Counted from the first letter of the stretch, positions 6,001 to 12,000 are shown. The stretch is DNA of 64,000 nucleotides from Escherichia coli O127:H6 str. E2348/69 (GCF_000026545.1 NC_011601.1); one strand, 5' to 3'. Made by a program: the numbers.

Positions 6001-9000
6001 ATTCGGCACGCTGGGGGGTGGGCAAGCCGTTATATCAGGATCTGATTTCCCGCACAAAAGCGGCATTGCAGAAAAATCCCAAAAACGTTCTGCTGGCCGT
6101 CTGCTGGATGCAGGGTGAGTTTGACATGAGCGCCGCCACCCACGTACAGCAACCTGCGCTGTTTACAGCCATGCTGACACAGTTTCGTGCTGACCTCTCC
6201 GTGTTTAACGCGCAGTGCCATGGTGGCAGTGCTGCAGATGTGCCGTGGGTTTGTGGTGACACGACGTATTACTGGAAAAATACATACGCTACCCAGTACG
6301 ACACCGTGTACGGCGGGTATAAAAACAGGGAGAGTGAGGGCGTTTATTTTGTGCCCTTCATGACAGACGGTAACGGCGTCAATACCGCCACTAACGCGCC
6401 GGCAGAAGATCCGGATATTCCGGTATCAGGATATTACGGTGCGGCATCGAGAACGAATGGAAACCAGGTATCATCAAACCGCCCGACACATTTCAGTTCA
6501 TGGGCGCGCAGGAGCATTATTCCGGATCGTCTGGCAACCGCTATTCTGAACGCAGCCGGGCGCACCTCAGCCTTCATCAGTGGTAAGGCACCGGAAATCA
6601 AACCCTCGTCCGGCGGCAACACGCCATCGGGTCCGTTTGCAGATACGTCCGTTCGCACAATCTCCCTGCTGCCGGCAGCCGGAGAGGCTGCTGCGCAGGG
6701 CTGGAGCATTAAGGATGGCGGAATTCAGTTGTCAGATGGTGTATTTAAGATCACCAAGCAGAGCAATAAAACCTGGTCCCTGACGCATCCGGTGGATGAC
6801 GCAATTACCCTGCTGACACAGGGCGGCAGACTGACCTGTAAGTTCCGCCTGTCAGGCGCACTGACCAACAATCAGTTCGGGCTGGGGATTTATCTGTATA
6901 CGGATGCTCCCGTTCCTGATGGTGTGGCGATGACGGGTACCGGTAATCCGTTCCTGATGTCGTACTTCACTCAGACCACTGACGGCAGAGTGAATCTGAT
7001 GCATCACAGGAAAGCCGGAAACACGAAGCTGGGGGAGTTCGGCGATTACGGTAACGACTGGCAGACGCTGGAGCTGGTGTTCACCGCCGGCAGTGCCACG
7101 GTTACTCCGAAACTGAATGGAGTGGCTGGCCCGGCATTCCAGGTTATAAAAGACAGTCTGACACTGGGACTGAATGCGCTGACGCTGACGGATGTTACAA
7201 AAAATGCAGCGTATGGCGTTGAGATAGAAAGTCTGATGCTGGAGATAAATGCACCGGCAGCATAATAAAAAAAGCCAGCGACTGACCTGAAAAAGAAGAC
7301 GCTGGCTAAAAGGCCTTATATGTTTGTAGAGACTTATTTTTCACAGACAGCAATGATGCCTGTCAATATATTATCAATATGCGGATTGTTTCAGTTACAG
7401 ATGCCTTATTAAGGAAAAAAACAGCCAGCACTGACTTTCGGTGGAGAGGTGCTGGCTCAAAAGGATAGATGTACTTCACATGTTGCTTCTATATGGCAGT
7501 ACATTTTCTGACAGACAGTGACGGATGTTGTCAAGATATTGTGTCATTTATAACCTGAATCAGGGGAGGCCGGAATGTTATCTGGCATTTTTAGCAGAGC
7601 CTGAATGCCATAATCACGGCTCCCGGCGTTGGCCGTCAGTGGGTGACACTGGCGGCTTTTTTGTTTTTCTTTACTTTCATTTTCTGTCGGCGGTGACGGA
7701 GACATACATCAGATGGAAAAAATCACAACAGGTGTGTCATACACCACGTCAGCGGTGGGGACGGGATACTGGTTACTGCAGCTGCTGGACAAAGTCTCTC
7801 CGTCCCAGTGGGTGGCAATAGGTGTGCTGGGAAGTCTGCTGTTTGGCCTGCTGACGTATCTGACAAATCTTTATTTCAAGATTAAAGAAGATAAGCGTAA
7901 GGCTGCGAGAGGTGAATAATGTCGCCGTCATTACGCAAGGCTGTTGCAGCTGCTATTGGTGGTGGGGCTGTTGCCATAGCGTCTGTGCTCATCACTGGTC
8001 CAGGTGGTAACGATGGTCTGGAAGGTGTCAGCTACATACCATACAAAGATATCGTTGGCGTATGGACTGTATGTCACGGACACACCGGAAAAGACATCAT
8101 GCCCGGTAAAACGTATACCGAAGCAGAATGCAAAGCCCTCCTGAATAAAGACCTTGCCACGGTCGCCAGACAAATTAACCCGTACATCAACGTCGATATA
8201 CCGGAAACAACGCGCGGCGCTCTTTACTCGTTCGTTTACAACGTGGGCGCTGGCAATTTCAGAACATCGACGCTTCTTCGCAAAATAAACCAGGGCGATA
8301 TCAAAGGCGCATGTGATCAGCTACGGCGCTGGACATACGCTGGCGGTAAGCAATGGAAAGGGCTGATGACTCGCCGCGAGATTGAGCGTGAAGTCTGTTT
8401 GTGGGGGCAACAATGAGCAGGGTAACCGTTATTATCTCCGCTCTGGTTATCTGCATTATCGCCTGCCTGTCATGGGCTGTTAATCATTACCGTGATAACG
8501 CCATCGCCTACAAAGAGCAGCGCGATAAAGCCACATCCATCATCGCTGATATGCAGAAGCGGCAACGTGATGTAGCAGAACTTGACGCCAGATACACAAA
8601 GGAGCTTGCTGATGCTAATGCGACTATCGAAAGTCTCCGTGCTGATGTTTCTGCTGGGCGTAAGCGCCTGCAAGTCTCCGCCACCTGTGCAAAGTCAACG
8701 ACCGGAGCCAGCAGCATGGGCGATGGAGAAAGCCCAGGACTTACAGCAGATGCTGAACTCAATTATTACCGTCTCCGAGGTGGAATCGACAAGATAACCG
8801 CGCAGGTTAACTACCTGCAGGAATACATCAGGACGCAGTGCTTAAAATAATTTTAATTTCACTGAAATTTAACAAGTGACTTTCAGGAAAATGCCTCGCA
8901 GATGCGGGGCATTTTTGTACCGGTATTTCACCGCGCACCGCAGCGCACAATAAACACCGAACCTGACCCTTTGGAATGGGCCTTTGAGGATACCAGTTAG

Positions 9001-12000
9001 TGCTGGCGAGCCTCGGTGGGCTGGTTTCCTGTGCGGCAAAGGTTCATTTCAAAGAAGCAGGCAACGCCATGAATGAATTAATTGCGAATCATGACTTCGA
9101 CTTTCGCCAGTTAGTTACCGCAGCAGAAGGTCAACCGGTAACTGACACCTTCCAGATTGCCAGGGCATTTGGTAAACGCCATCAGCATGTGATTAGGGCT
9201 ATTAAATGTTTGAGATGTTCTGAGGAATTCTCGACAACCCATTTTTGGGCCGTCGAGAAAATCAATGACTTAGGGATTTTTGACAAGAAACAGATTTACT
9301 ACCGCATGGACTTTAGTGGCTTCGTTATGCTGGTTATGGGATTTAACGGGGCAAAAGCCGATGCTGTTAAAGAAGCCTATATCAATGCGTTTAACTGGAT
9401 GTCAGCAGAACTCCGTAAGTACAGCGAAAGTTATGAAGCAGAACGTAACGCCGTAATGCTGGAGTACATGAAAGAGAAGGATGTCGCCAGCATGTCAGGC
9501 CGTCTGCTCAATCGCTGGGGGAGAACGAAAAAACCTCAATTGCTTGCAAAGCTGGAACGTCTGGAGAGACAGGGACAGTTTTTATTACCGGGATTCGATA
9601 AAGGTATTCAAGCCTGACACATTATGCGCTGTATCGTCGCCGTATTCCCGCATTAACCATGACCGTAGCCCGACGGGGAATTCCTTCTGCGTGAGTGTGC
9701 GGGAATAATCAAAAACGATGCACACCGGGTTTTACTGTGCTGACAGACGCAGGGTTACCCTCATAGTCGCTTTTCCGGTGCGATGGTGGAAGAAACCGGG
9801 ATGTTCATCCATCATCACTTTGGATTGATGTATATGCTCTCTTTTCTGACGTTAGTCTCCGACGGCAGGCTTCAATGACCCAGGCTGAGAAATTCCCAGA
9901 CCCTTTTTGCTCAAGAGCGATGTTAATTTGTTCAATCATTTGGTTAGGAAAGCGGATGTTGCGGGTTGTTGTTCTGCGGGTTCTGTTCTTCGTTGACATG
10001 AGGTTGCCCCGTATTCAGTGTCGCTGATTTGTATTGTCTGAAGTTGTTTTTACGTTAAGTTGATGCAGATCAATTAATACGATACCTGCGTCATAATTGA
10101 TTATTTGACGTGGTTTGATGGCGTAGATGCACGTTGTGACATGTAGATGATAATCATTATCATATTGCGGGTCCTTTCCGGCGATCCGACATGTTACGGG
10201 GCGGCGACCTCGCGGGTTTTCGCTATTTATGAAAATTTTCCGGGAACCATGTCCGGTTTCTCTTCAAGTTAACTATATGAAAAATATAAAAACAGGTCTT
10301 CTGTGAACCGGACATGCACAAAAAATAGATATGTAAACCGGACATGACCGGTTTTGTTGTGATTGTGAGGTGAGAGTTTTTGCGAGGTGAGGAGTGGCTA
10401 CGCAGACTGAAGTTGCCAGGCATTTAAGTCTGACCGATCGCCAGCTTCGCAGATTGCAGAAATTGCCGGGTGCCCCGATATCAAATAAGCGAGGGCAACT
10501 GGATCTGGATGCCTGGCGCGATTTTTACATATCGTATCTGAGGAGAAGTAAAAACGATGTGCCTGATGGCGATAGCGAAGACGACTATGAGGAAAAATTG
10601 CTTATTGCCAGATGGGAACTGACAGCAGAACAGGCTGTTACACAGCAGTTAAAAAATGAGGTGTCAAAAGGAAAACTTATTGACACCGGGTTCTGTATTT
10701 TTGCCCTCAGTAAGCTGGCAATGGCGTTATCCAGTACGCTTGATTCCATCCCTTTATCCATGCAACGACAGTTTCCTGATTTAACACCGCGCCATCTTGA
10801 CCATCTGAAAACCCTTATTGCGAAGGGGGCAAATCAGTGTGCGCGGGCGGGGGATAAATTACCGGATTTACTCGATGAATATATCAGAGCAACAACTGAA
10901 TAATATGATGAGTGCTGTCACAACAGCATTACAGCCCCTGATAAGGGCATTGCCGGTGACGCCAGTTGAATGGGCTGATCAAAATTATTATCTGCCTAAA
11001 GAATCTTCATATGGTGAGGGAGAATGGAAAACGCTGCCATTCCAGATCGCCATCATGAACAGCATGGGGAATGATCAGATCCGCACTGTTAATCTGATTA
11101 AATCTGCCCGTGTTGGCTATACAAAGATGTTGCTGGGGGTGGTCGGGTATTTTATTGAGCATAAATCCCGAAACAGTCTGCTTTTTCAGCCCACGGATTC
11201 TGCCGCTGAAGATTTTATGAAGTCTCACGTGGAGGCGACGATTCGGAACGTGCCATGCCTGAAAGACCTTTCCCCATGGCTGGGGCGTAAACATCGTGAC
11301 AATACTCTCACGCTGAAACGCTTTTCATCGGGCGTCGGTTTCTGGTGCCTGGGCGGCGCTGCCGCCAAAAACTACCGTGAAAAATCCGTGGACGTGGTCT
11401 GCTATGACGAACTTTCCTCGTTCGAGCCGGATGTCGAAAAAGAGGGCTCGCCAACCCTGCTGGGGGATAAGCGTATTGAGGGGTCGGTGTGGCCAAAATC
11501 CATTCGCGGCTCGACGCCTAAAATCAAAGGAACCTGCCAGATCGAAAAAGCCGCTAACGAGTCGGCGCATTTTATGCGTTTTTATGTGCCCTGCCCGCAC
11601 TGTGGGGAGGCGCAGTATCTGAAATTTGGCGATGAGTCCACGCCTTTTGGGCTTAAATGGGAGAAGGACAGCCCCGAAAGTGTTTTCTACCTCTGTGAAC
11701 ATCATGGCTGCGTGATCCATCAGTCTGAACTGGACCAGAGCAACGGGCGGTGGATCTGTGAAAACACGGGCATGTGGACCCGTGACGGTCTGACGTTTTT
11801 CAGCGCCCGGGGTGATGAAATTCCGCCGCCGCGCTCCATCACGTTCCATATCTGGACGGCGTACAGTCCGTTTACCACCTGGGTACAGATAGTCTATGAC
11901 TGGCTGGATGCACTGAAAGATCCCAACGGCCTGAAAACCTTTGTGAACACCACGCTGGGCGAGACCTGGGAAGAAGCCGTGGGCGAAAAACTCGATCACC

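What the first reader, a model, noticed from the sequence alone, without database searches (positions are those of the whole stretch)
9000..10146. Rha-family regulator and divergent YlcI-like gene in the region just upstream of cos
Between Rz and cos this prophage has a plus-strand Rha-type antirepressor-like gene and a minus-strand 64-aa DUF3950 gene, separated by ~190 bp of non-coding DNA; lambda has bor in this region, as I recall it. The pair may form a small regulatory or exclusion module.
Basis: partly seen in the sequence, partly recalled or inferred. Interest (0 to 1): 0.25.

Follow-up and report, generated by a model that had tools for sequence, protein, structure and literature searches.

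The report
Unlinked rha and ylcI prophage genes
Two already-annotated accessory genes of a lambda-like prophage (a P22-type rha gene and lambda's own small ylcI gene) lie tail to tail just before the DNA-packaging site, and they are independently inherited passengers, not a working pair.

Summary
The window is a lambdoid prophage of EPEC E2348/69. RefSeq annotates a Rha-family gene at 9000-9617 (+) and ylcI (DUF3950) at 9805-9999 (-), 187 bp apart and 200 bp left of cosN. Both are under purifying selection.

The "module" interpretation is not supported.
- The genes are convergent, not divergent, and share no control region.
- ylcI plus the left side of cos occurs 8407 times in 3786 of 5426 E. 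coli genomes. Lambda has it too, unannotated in NC_001416.
- This rha is full length in 358 genomes, and the two are contiguous in 257.
- The slot after Rz holds bor, rha or kilA-N interchangeably.
- P22 has rha without ylcI.

Corrections and additions:
- rha most likely starts at ATG 9069 (182 aa), not GTG 9000.
- Bases 9000-9054 of the annotated ORF lie inside a conserved 86-nt hairpin (8969-9054). It precedes unrelated late-operon genes in phages of five genera and shows compensatory changes.
- The "non-coding spacer" (9625-9801) is itself a conserved element, present in 68% of E. coli genomes and in lambda.

A ribbon-helix-helix fold for YlcI could not be confirmed. As stated, the finding is ordinary and already known. 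The two RNA-like elements are the only possibly new items.

The parts
8887..8916 (+). Terminator-like hairpin (13-bp stem flanked by an A-run and a U-run) directly after Rz (Rz ends at 8850)
   Evidence: Inverted repeat I3. RNA fold -20.2 kcal/mol, z = -4.3, 0 of 200 shuffles fold as well. ES18 annotates a 'putative terminator' at the equivalent place.
8969..9054 (+). Conserved 86-nt leader hairpin (34 predicted pairs) ending 14 nt before the ATG. It overlaps bases 9000-9054 of the 69-nt extension (9000-9068) that the RefSeq ORF adds upstream of ATG 9069.
   Evidence: 98.9% of cells paired against 34-55% in slid controls. Three pairs show compensatory double changes, against none in any slid control. 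12 pairs show G.U against 2 with A.C, which favours the + strand RNA. Found in 835 of 5426 E. coli genomes and in 75 phage records from Salmonella, Escherichia, Shigella, Enterobacter and Klebsiella. No Rfam match.
9069..9617 (+). rha, ortholog of P22 rha/ORF201: Phage_pRha domain plus C-terminal ORF11CD3 domain. 182 aa from ATG 9069; RefSeq calls 9000-9617 from GTG.
   Evidence: Pfam, NCBIfam and PHROG hits. About 91% DNA identity to P22 rha in the same position after the Rz homolog. dN/dS 0.135 at dS 0.61. KilA-N and other genes start at the same offset, and the GTG frame carries an in-frame TAG in three other contexts.
9625..9801 (+). Conserved non-coding element filling the rha-ylcI gap, with inverted repeats 9643-9653/9697-9707 and 9773-9779/9795-9801
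   Evidence: 5711 places in 3668 of 5426 E. coli genomes, almost never annotated. 432 phage records including lambda, Stx phages and ES18. Always in the same orientation downstream of Rz. No frame is open in more than 35 of 63 variants. Four pairs show compensatory changes; covariation score 0.124 against 0.076 in shuffles. Single-sequence folding energy is not significant.
9805..9999 (-). ylcI (YlcI/YnfO family, DUF3950), 64 aa, a basic N-terminus followed by two predicted helices
   Evidence: Pfam 72.8 bits, NF041551, phrog_949. 61 of 64 residues identical to the unannotated lambda ORF. dN/dS 0.144 against the EC4115 copy. Secondary structure from AlphaFold2 at pLDDT 65.
10169..10210 (+). 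Right-end cos sequences for context: a GGGTCCT motif (cosQ in lambda, from my memory) and the 12-nt cohesive end GGGCGGCGACCT at 10199-10210
   Evidence: The sequence aligns with lambda's last bases. This cos-left segment together with ylcI recurs 8407 times in E. coli genomes.

Best explanation
The Rz-cos interval of this E2348/69 lambdoid prophage is a mosaic cargo region built from separately inherited pieces, not a two-gene module.

Piece 1 (8851-9617) is the P22-type rha cassette. It consists of a strong terminator-like hairpin, a conserved 86-nt leader hairpin, and then rha starting at ATG 9069. It lies on the late-transcript strand and has no promoter-like site of its own. I infer that rha is made only when Q-modified RNA polymerase reads through from the late promoter. 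Its product is a DNA-binding-type regulator (Rha domain plus ORF11CD3 domain). The only phenotype reported for the family is inhibition of phage growth in hosts lacking IHF.

Piece 2 (9625-9801) is a conserved non-coding element. It sits after the lysis cassette in most lambdoid phages, whichever cargo gene precedes it.

Piece 3 (9788-10198) is lambda's own right end. It carries ylcI on the opposite strand and the left part of cos. YlcI is a small basic protein. I infer that it binds DNA, probably through a ribbon-helix-helix-like fold, and that it is transcribed leftward from its own promoter in lysogens.

Shown: the gene identities, orientation, purifying selection, independent distributions, interchangeable cargo, and conservation and pairing of the two non-coding elements. 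Inferred: late-operon expression of rha, the fold and DNA binding of YlcI, and an RNA-level role for the hairpins.
For: Identity and annotation. P22 orthology and synteny. Purifying selection. Mosaic joints: the spacer matches the segment upstream of bor in lambda, ev087 and Stx phages, and window 9788-10198 matches lambda-type phage records at about 96-97%. Independent distribution. Interchangeable cargo behind the same leader and the same ATG. No sigma-70-like site between Rz and rha. Strong hairpin with a U-run. P22 rha is described as a late-operon gene harmful to lytic growth without IHF (PMC4936722; ES18 gp79 note). ylcI is transcribed in K-12 and forms a convergent overlapping pair with ybcW in RNA-seq (PMC12288877).
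Against: No expression data for this prophage were available. The promoter scan found no consensus promoter for ylcI either. The ribbon-helix-helix assignment rests on sequence pattern and weak hits only: a CopG protein at E = 0.88, Arc in register but at 3% probability, and RHH_6 at E = 0.092 for one member. Of the 358 genomes with full-length rha, 257 carry it next to ylcI, so a local association exists. It is explained by the abundance of lambda-type cos ends, but it does not by itself exclude interaction.
Confidence: 0.72

Rival explanations
1. One reading: Rha and YlcI form a small regulatory or exclusion module. For example, an Arc-like repressor controlling an antirepressor-like gene, as Arc and Mnt control ant in P22 immI.
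For: YlcI has an Arc-like sequence pattern, with NIRFPNQMIEQI aligning to Arc's NLRWPREVLDLV. Rha-family proteins are often labelled anti-repressor. 257 of the 358 genomes with full-length rha have the two genes adjacent.
Against: The genes are convergent with no shared promoter. About 97% of ylcI copies lack this rha. ylcI sits equally next to bor or kilA-N. Lambda has ylcI without rha, and P22 and IdasGreatGrand have rha without ylcI. No PADLOC hit. No ANT domain.
Confidence: 0.04
2. YlcI is a packaging-associated or anti-satellite DNA-binding factor, not a lysogen regulator. Its conserved place immediately before the packaging module would then reflect a role at cos or with the small terminase.
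For: YlcI-family genes sit just upstream of three different packaging modules: lambda Nu1 type, this window's Nu1 variant, and the HNH + Terminase_2 type. In integrase + primase + TerS + capsid islands, a DUF3950 domain is fused to the N-terminal DNA-binding part of a Terminase_2 small terminase (P0252 120 aa, P0193 129 aa).
Against: The gene is on the strand opposite the late operon, so it cannot be co-expressed with the terminase genes from the late promoter. It is transcribed in the defective prophage DLP12 without induction. The region upstream of ylcI is not conserved between packaging types. No experimental data exist.
Confidence: 0.15
3. rha starts at GTG 9000, as RefSeq annotates and as the historical P22 'ORF201' implies. 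The conserved leader would then be conserved because it encodes the N-terminal 23 residues.
For: The frame is open from 9000. RefSeq and the P22 records annotate that start. A TAG stop of a small upstream ORF overlaps the GTG (TAGTG), which resembles translational coupling (read by eye).
Against: Profile models align from residue 1 of the 182-aa form (phrog_518 covers 1-181). KilA-N, HNH and distant Rha genes (25% identical) begin at the same ATG offset behind the same leader. In the L080, L011 and L012 contexts the GTG frame contains an in-frame TAG. Three of the four substitutions in 9000-9068 fall at codon positions 1 or 2. The region is better explained by 34 conserved base pairs.
Confidence: 0.15
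4. The two conserved non-coding stretches are only recombination linkers, that is, shared boundary homology that lets lambdoid phages swap cargo. They would have no RNA or protein-binding function.
For: Both sit exactly at mosaic joints between alternative cargo genes. Single-sequence folding z-scores are weak: -0.09 and +0.30 for the spacer, -1.9 for the leader. The number of pairs with compensatory change does not exceed shuffles.
Against: Paired cells reach 98.6-98.9% against 32-58% in slid controls. Compensatory cells and covariation score exceed all 500 shuffles. G.U is strongly favoured over A.C. The leader is 96.8% identical to P22's although rha synonymous divergence is 0.61.
Confidence: 0.35

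Closest known systems
Salmonella phage P22 rha (ORF201) and phi80 rha
   Same: About 91% DNA identity over the leader and gene. Same position directly after the Rz homolog (gene 15) on the late strand. Same Phage_pRha + ORF11CD3 architecture.
   Different: There is a divergent patch at about 9160-9260 inside the Rha domain, and the C-terminal approximately 20 residues differ. Here rha is followed by the lambda right end (ylcI, cos) instead of P22's orf25/orf80/orf59c and pac-type terminase. The IHF-dependent phenotype is known only for P22 and phi80 and was not tested here.
Phage lambda right end (bor - lambdap78 - lambdap79 - unannotated ylcI ORF - cos)
   Same: Window 9788-10198 matches lambda-type phage records at about 96-97%, including a 64-aa ORF with 61 of 64 identical residues and the cos-left sequences. 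The spacer element is also in lambda, between bor and lambdap78.
   Different: Lambda carries bor (-), lambdap78 and lambdap79 where this prophage carries rha (+). The small terminase and its repeated binding-site-like motifs right of cosN differ from lambda Nu1.
E. coli K-12 DLP12 ylcI and Qin ynfO (YlcI/YnfO family, DUF3950)
   Same: Same family and same place just left of the nohD/nohA packaging-gene remnants. ylcI is transcribed in K-12, convergent with ybcW (PMC12288877).
   Different: No function is known for any member. The neighbours differ: ybcV/ybcW in DLP12, rha here.
Ribbon-helix-helix repressors (P22 Arc/Mnt, CopG)
   Same: Small size, a basic N-terminal arm, and the pattern hydrophobic strand - helix - G-x-S/N turn - helix. 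Arc and a CopG protein align in that register.
   Different: No statistically significant sequence or fold match. The dimer model failed. No operator was identified.
KilA-N + ORF11CD3 proteins of O157:H7 and other lambdoid prophages
   Same: They occupy the same slot, behind the same leader hairpin and the same ATG, and share the C-terminal ORF11CD3 domain.
   Different: The N-terminal DNA-binding domain is KilA-N instead of Rha.

Membership tests
Rha family (Pfam PF09669 Phage_pRha / TIGR02681) | Rha domain scoring above the curated cut-off | tested here: met
   PF09669 75.4 bits (cut-off 29.9), TIGR02681 73.3 bits (cut-off 45.95), phrog_518 E = 4.5e-87
Rha family (P22/phi80 rha orthologs) | Orthology and synteny with P22 rha: downstream of the Rz homolog, on the late strand | tested here: met
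   About 91% DNA identity, same position; dN/dS 0.135
Rha family (P22/phi80 rha orthologs) | Rha phenotype: the product inhibits phage growth in IHF-deficient hosts | not testable with these tools
   Known from the literature for phi80 and P22 only (PMC4936722; ES18 gp79 annotation note). The primary paper was not held.
Antirepressor (Ant type) | ANT/AntA-type domain, or demonstrated binding to and inactivation of a phage repressor | tested here: not met
   Pfam finds only Phage_pRha and ORF11CD3. 'Anti-repressor' is an annotation label in some records. The activity itself cannot be tested here.
YlcI/YnfO family (DUF3950, PF13132; NF041551) | Domain scoring above the curated cut-off | tested here: met
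   72.8 bits (cut-off 25); NF041551 37.6 bits (cut-off 30); phrog_949 E = 2.3e-35
Ribbon-helix-helix (Arc/MetJ/CopG) superfamily | Beta-strand - helix - helix fold forming an intertwined dimer | tested here: inconclusive
Divergent or co-regulated two-gene module | Shared control region, or operon arrangement and co-inheritance | tested here: not met
   Convergent orientation. Contiguous in 257 genomes against 8407 ylcI places. Alternative partners bor and kilA-N.
Known anti-phage defence or exclusion systems (PADLOC) | Match to a defence-system protein model | tested here: not met
   0 families for either protein
Moron (autonomous promoter - gene - terminator unit) | Own promoter and terminator flanking the gene | tested here: inconclusive
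   rha has a terminator-like hairpin upstream but no promoter-like site. ylcI has no consensus promoter or terminator in the scan, yet it is transcribed in K-12.
Described RNA families (Rfam 15) | Covariance-model match for the leader hairpin or the spacer element | tested here: not met
   Only two chance-level hits in 7000-11000 at E <= 1 (asX2 E = 0.92, SNORD35 E = 0.63), and neither fits

The most novel reading that the evidence does not exclude
The annotated GTG start of rha (the extension 9000-9068) and the 'spacer' mask two undescribed, widely conserved cis-acting RNA structures of lambdoid and P22-like late transcripts. The first is an 86-nt leader hairpin (8969-9054). It sits 14 nt upstream of the start codon of interchangeable accessory genes (rha, kilA-N, HNH endonuclease) in phages of at least five enterobacterial genera. 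It could act as an RNase III or mRNA-stability site, or control translation. The second is a ~175-nt element (9625-9801) present after the lysis cassette in lambda itself and in about two thirds of E. coli genomes. Separately, YlcI may be a ribbon-helix-helix regulator shared between lambdoid phages and integrase-bearing satellite islands.
Probability: 0.35. Interest if true: 0.45.

Novelty: already known. Interest (0 to 1): 0.17.

Why it matters
As stated, the finding matters little. Both genes are annotated members of known families, and their adjacency is one of many mosaic combinations in the lambdoid Rz-cos cargo slot.

Four by-products have modest value:
- A probable start-codon error that propagates through RefSeq and P22 records for Rha-family genes.
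- The reference lambda annotation lacks an intact, selected 64-aa gene 200 bp from cos.
- YlcI/DUF3950 is among the most common uncharacterised prophage genes in E. coli (about 8400 copies in 5426 genomes) and sits at a fixed place before the packaging module.
- Two conserved non-coding elements with base-pair covariation lie in late transcripts. They are absent from Rfam and could be tested cheaply in lambda or P22.

Tried and rejected
- **Homolog searches.** The first homolog search was dominated by near-identical, error-laden copies on ~3.5-kb contigs, useless for diversity. The representative search found only 141 clusters.
- **IHF control of rha.** The consensus WATCARNNNNTTR has no match in the leader; its only nearby match is inside rha at 9260. 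The primary Rha paper (Henthorn and Friedman 1995) was not held.
- **A YlcI operator.** The palindrome at 10069-10101 is absent from HNH-type ylcI contexts, so I did not pursue it.
- **Spacer as ylcI terminator or coding remnant.** Rejected: no U-run on the minus strand, no consistently open frame, and the element occurs without ylcI.
- **Spacer or leader as a known sRNA (AgvB, AsxR, STnc100, Pas).** No Rfam hit. The Pas sRNAs of E2348/69 map elsewhere in the prophage.
- **Defence role.** No PADLOC match.
- **Literature on ylcI, ynfO and DUF3950.** Nothing functional was found.
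Full report
**Provenance and check of the observation.** The window is 100% identical to the chromosome of enteropathogenic E. coli O127:H6 E2348/69. It covers a lambdoid prophage. RefSeq annotates, in order: Q, a sialate esterase, holin, lysozyme, Rz, "Rha family transcriptional regulator" (window 9000-9617, +), "ylcI: YlcI/YnfO family protein" (9805-9999, -), small terminase (10394-10903) and large terminase. The mechanical ORF list shows the same two ORFs.

Pfam assigns Phage_pRha plus ORF11CD3 to the first and DUF3950 to the second, all far above the curated cut-offs. NCBIfam and PHROGs agree. The gap between the two genes is 187 bp. The lambda cohesive-end sequence GGGCGGCGACCT begins at 10199, 200 bp from the ylcI start.

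One descriptor is wrong. rha runs rightward and ylcI leftward, so their 3' ends face each other. The pair is convergent, not divergent.

**The rha gene.** The segment 8851-9520 is about 91% identical to the rha (ORF201) region of Salmonella phage P22. There the gene lies in the same place, directly after the Rz homolog and before the packaging genes. Against P22, dS is 0.61 and dN/dS is 0.135, so it is a selected protein-coding gene and not a pseudogene.

The literature I could reach describes P22 rha as a late-operon gene whose product harms lytic growth when the host lacks IHF (PMC4936722; ES18 gp79 annotation). It also describes the Rha domain as a winged-helix DNA-binding motif (PMC8951638). 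Nothing supports a true antirepressor activity. No ANT domain is present, and "anti-repressor" is only a database label.

**The start codon and the leader.** RefSeq and the P22 records start the gene at the position of GTG 9000. Several results point to ATG 9069 instead.
- Profile models align from residue 1 of the 182-aa form.
- In O157:H7 EC4115 and in E24377A, a KilA-N gene starts at exactly the equivalent ATG behind the same upstream sequence.
- The same holds for Rha-family genes that are only 25% identical (ES18, SI8, an Enterobacter phage), for a KilA-N gene in strain GF43, and, three bases further on, for an HNH endonuclease gene in phage CharmingMan. In Klebsiella phage RothD a homing-endonuclease gene follows the hairpin, but its annotated start lies upstream, inside the element.
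- In three contexts the GTG frame contains an in-frame TAG before the ATG.

The 218 bases between Rz and the ATG are 96.8% identical to P22, although synonymous sites of rha have diverged by 0.61. They contain two features.
- A 13-bp hairpin at 8887-8916 is flanked by an A-run and a U-run. It folds at -20.2 kcal/mol with z = -4.3 and looks like an intrinsic terminator.
- An 86-nt hairpin at 8969-9054 has 34 predicted pairs.

For the second hairpin I aligned 14 distinct copies, including divergent ones from Salmonella, Enterobacter, Klebsiella and Escherichia phages. In that alignment 98.9% of cells pair, against 34-55% when partners are slid. Three pairs carry compensatory double changes (U-A to G-C, A-U to G-C, C-G to U-A), against none in any slid control. 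G.U pairs are common (12 pairs) and A.C is rare (2 pairs), which favours the + strand RNA. The element occurs in 835 of 5426 E. coli genomes and in 75 phage records. It has no Rfam match.

The simple promoter scan finds nothing between Rz and rha. I therefore infer that rha is expressed only from the Q-antiterminated late transcript. I also infer that the leader hairpin acts on that RNA, in processing, stability or translation. Neither inference is shown.

**The ylcI gene.** The segment 9788-10198 matches lambda-type phage records at about 96-97%. Lambda itself has an intact 64-aa ORF at 48109-48303 (complement) with 61 of 64 identical residues. NC_001416.1 does not annotate it. So the DUF3950 gene is not a difference from lambda. 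Only the cargo to its left differs.

This segment occurs at 8407 places in 3786 of 5426 complete E. coli genomes, up to 12 per genome. Against a diverged copy in O157:H7 EC4115, dN/dS is 0.144 at dS 0.87, so it is a selected gene. In the full representative library the family is small, at 141 clusters. No paper in the held library assigns it a function. One RNA-seq study lists ybcW-ylcI as a convergent overlapping transcript pair in K-12, so ylcI is transcribed from a silent, defective prophage (PMC12288877).

The sequence has a basic arm, then a short hydrophobic stretch, then two helices joined by a G-S-G-N turn. That resembles ribbon-helix-helix repressors, and Arc and a CopG protein align in that register. 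None of my tests reached significance, however, and the structure predictions were of low confidence. DNA binding through an RHH-like fold therefore remains an inference.

YlcI-family genes also sit immediately before HNH + Terminase_2 packaging modules. In integrase-primase-TerS-capsid islands, a DUF3950 domain is fused to the N-terminal DNA-binding part of a small terminase. That keeps a packaging-related or satellite-related role open as a minority rival.

**The "spacer".** Bases 9625-9801 are not anonymous. The same approximately 175-bp sequence lies between bor and lambdap78 in lambda, after bor in Stx phages, and after rha in phage IdasGreatGrand. It occurs at 5711 places in 3668 of 5426 E. 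coli genomes, nearly always unannotated, and in 432 phage records. In 116 viral loci it always has the same orientation relative to Rz. No reading frame is open in more than 35 of 63 variants.

Two inverted repeats are maintained, at 9643-9653/9697-9707 and at 9773-9779/9795-9801. Four pairs show compensatory changes, for example U-A in 31 and G-C in 25 sequences at one pair. The covariation score is 0.124 against 0.076 in shuffles. Pairing is 98.6% against 32-58% in slid controls, and G.U-type variants appear at 16 pairs against A.C-type at 5.

Against a structural role, single-sequence folding energies are ordinary (z = -0.09 and +0.30). The count of covarying pairs does not exceed shuffles. 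I leave this as an unexplained conserved element, possibly an RNA structure in the late transcript.

**Test of the module idea.** Three lines argue against it.
- Orientation: the genes are convergent, so they cannot share a promoter or operator region.
- Distribution: the contiguous rha-ylcI-cos arrangement is in 257 genomes and this rha is full length in 358, but ylcI with cos-left occurs 8407 times. About 97% of ylcI copies therefore have another neighbour.
- Interchangeability: of 44 viral loci with ylcI, 35 carry bor, 5 rha and 3 kilA-N. Of 14 with rha, 5 have ylcI, and 3 show packaging genes but no ylcI. P22 and IdasGreatGrand have rha and no ylcI by tblastn.

Neither protein matches a PADLOC defence model. 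The most economical reading is mosaic juxtaposition of a P22-type cassette and a lambda-type right end, joined at conserved non-coding sequences.

**Comparison with what is known, and novelty.** Both genes are members of curated families and are annotated at these coordinates in RefSeq. The arrangement is present, at 99% identity or more, in EPEC, O145, O111 and other strains. As stated, the finding is already known and ordinary.

The possibly new points are by-products: the likely mis-annotated rha start, the missing lambda annotation, and the two conserved RNA-like elements. None of these is established functionally.

**Limits.** No expression data for this strain were available. E-values for the RHH hints are not significant. 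The covariation controls used here do not correct for phylogeny, and the tested structures were derived from the same sequences, which inflates agreement. The cosQ motif and the nature of the ~3.5-kb lambda-like contigs rest on my own memory and not on a tool result.

Noticed in passing
window 8969-9054 (also L001, L138-L143): Conserved 86-nt hairpin ending 14 nt before the start codon of unrelated late-operon genes (rha, kilA-N, HNH endonuclease) in Escherichia, Salmonella, Shigella, Enterobacter and Klebsiella phages. It shows three compensatory pairs and has no Rfam family. RefSeq annotates part of it as the N-terminus of Rha.
   Followed up: yes
window 9625-9801; lambda about 46880-47050: The rha-ylcI 'spacer' is a conserved, unannotated element present in 68% of complete E. 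coli genomes and in lambda, Stx phages and ES18. Two inverted repeats are kept by compensatory changes. Its function is unknown.
   Followed up: yes
L006 2710-2904 (lambda 48109-48303, complement): Reference lambda (NC_001416.1) has an intact 64-aa YlcI/DUF3950 ORF 200 bp from cos that is not annotated in the record.
   Followed up: yes
window 8902-9000: A 32-aa upstream ORF starts inside the terminator-like hairpin and ends with a TAG overlapping GTG 9000 (TAGTG). By eye, a different upstream context (L080) keeps an ATG ORF in the same frame with the same C-terminal residues (TEPxPLEWAFEDTS). This may simply reflect the conserved hairpin.
   Followed up: no
L129/L130 4590-5363 and flanks (E. 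coli chromosomes CP027459, AP026754): An integrase + D5-type primase + Terminase_2 + capsid island looks like a phage satellite. It encodes two DUF3950 proteins, one fused to a small-terminase N-terminal DNA-binding domain, diverging from its replication/packaging operon. It sits directly beside a prophage's HNH/terS genes.
   Followed up: partly
proteins P0001-P0120: Dozens of error-laden YlcI variants come from ~3.5-kb ENA contigs, and some are labelled Staphylococcus aureus or Veillonella. They look like lambda control DNA carried into assemblies (my interpretation, from memory of the 3.6-kb nanopore lambda control amplicon).
   Followed up: no
window 10248-10346: Three copies of AACCGGACATG, one inverted, lie between cosN and the small terminase gene. 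They are likely cosB-type binding sites for this non-lambda Nu1 variant.
   Followed up: no
window about 3950-5400 and 7270-7710: A 2026 preprint places the Hfq-bound sRNA genes pasD2 and pasA of E2348/69 on either side of the sialate esterase gene (5415-7265) of one prophage, with LpxR and Q nearby. That matches this window. I did not locate the sRNAs themselves (10.64898/2026.05.13.724894).
   Followed up: no
L136 1330-4189: A distant DUF3950 homolog (P0204) lies just downstream of a cdtABC cytolethal distending toxin operon. This suggests cdt can occupy the same cargo region ahead of ylcI.
   Followed up: no
window 1820-2779 and nin region (L003 1123-2826): RefSeq annotates an LpxR-family lipid A deacylase on the opposite strand inside the nin/Q region, and several pseudogenes there (RusA with an internal stop, truncated HNH and antiterminator fragments).
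   Followed up: no
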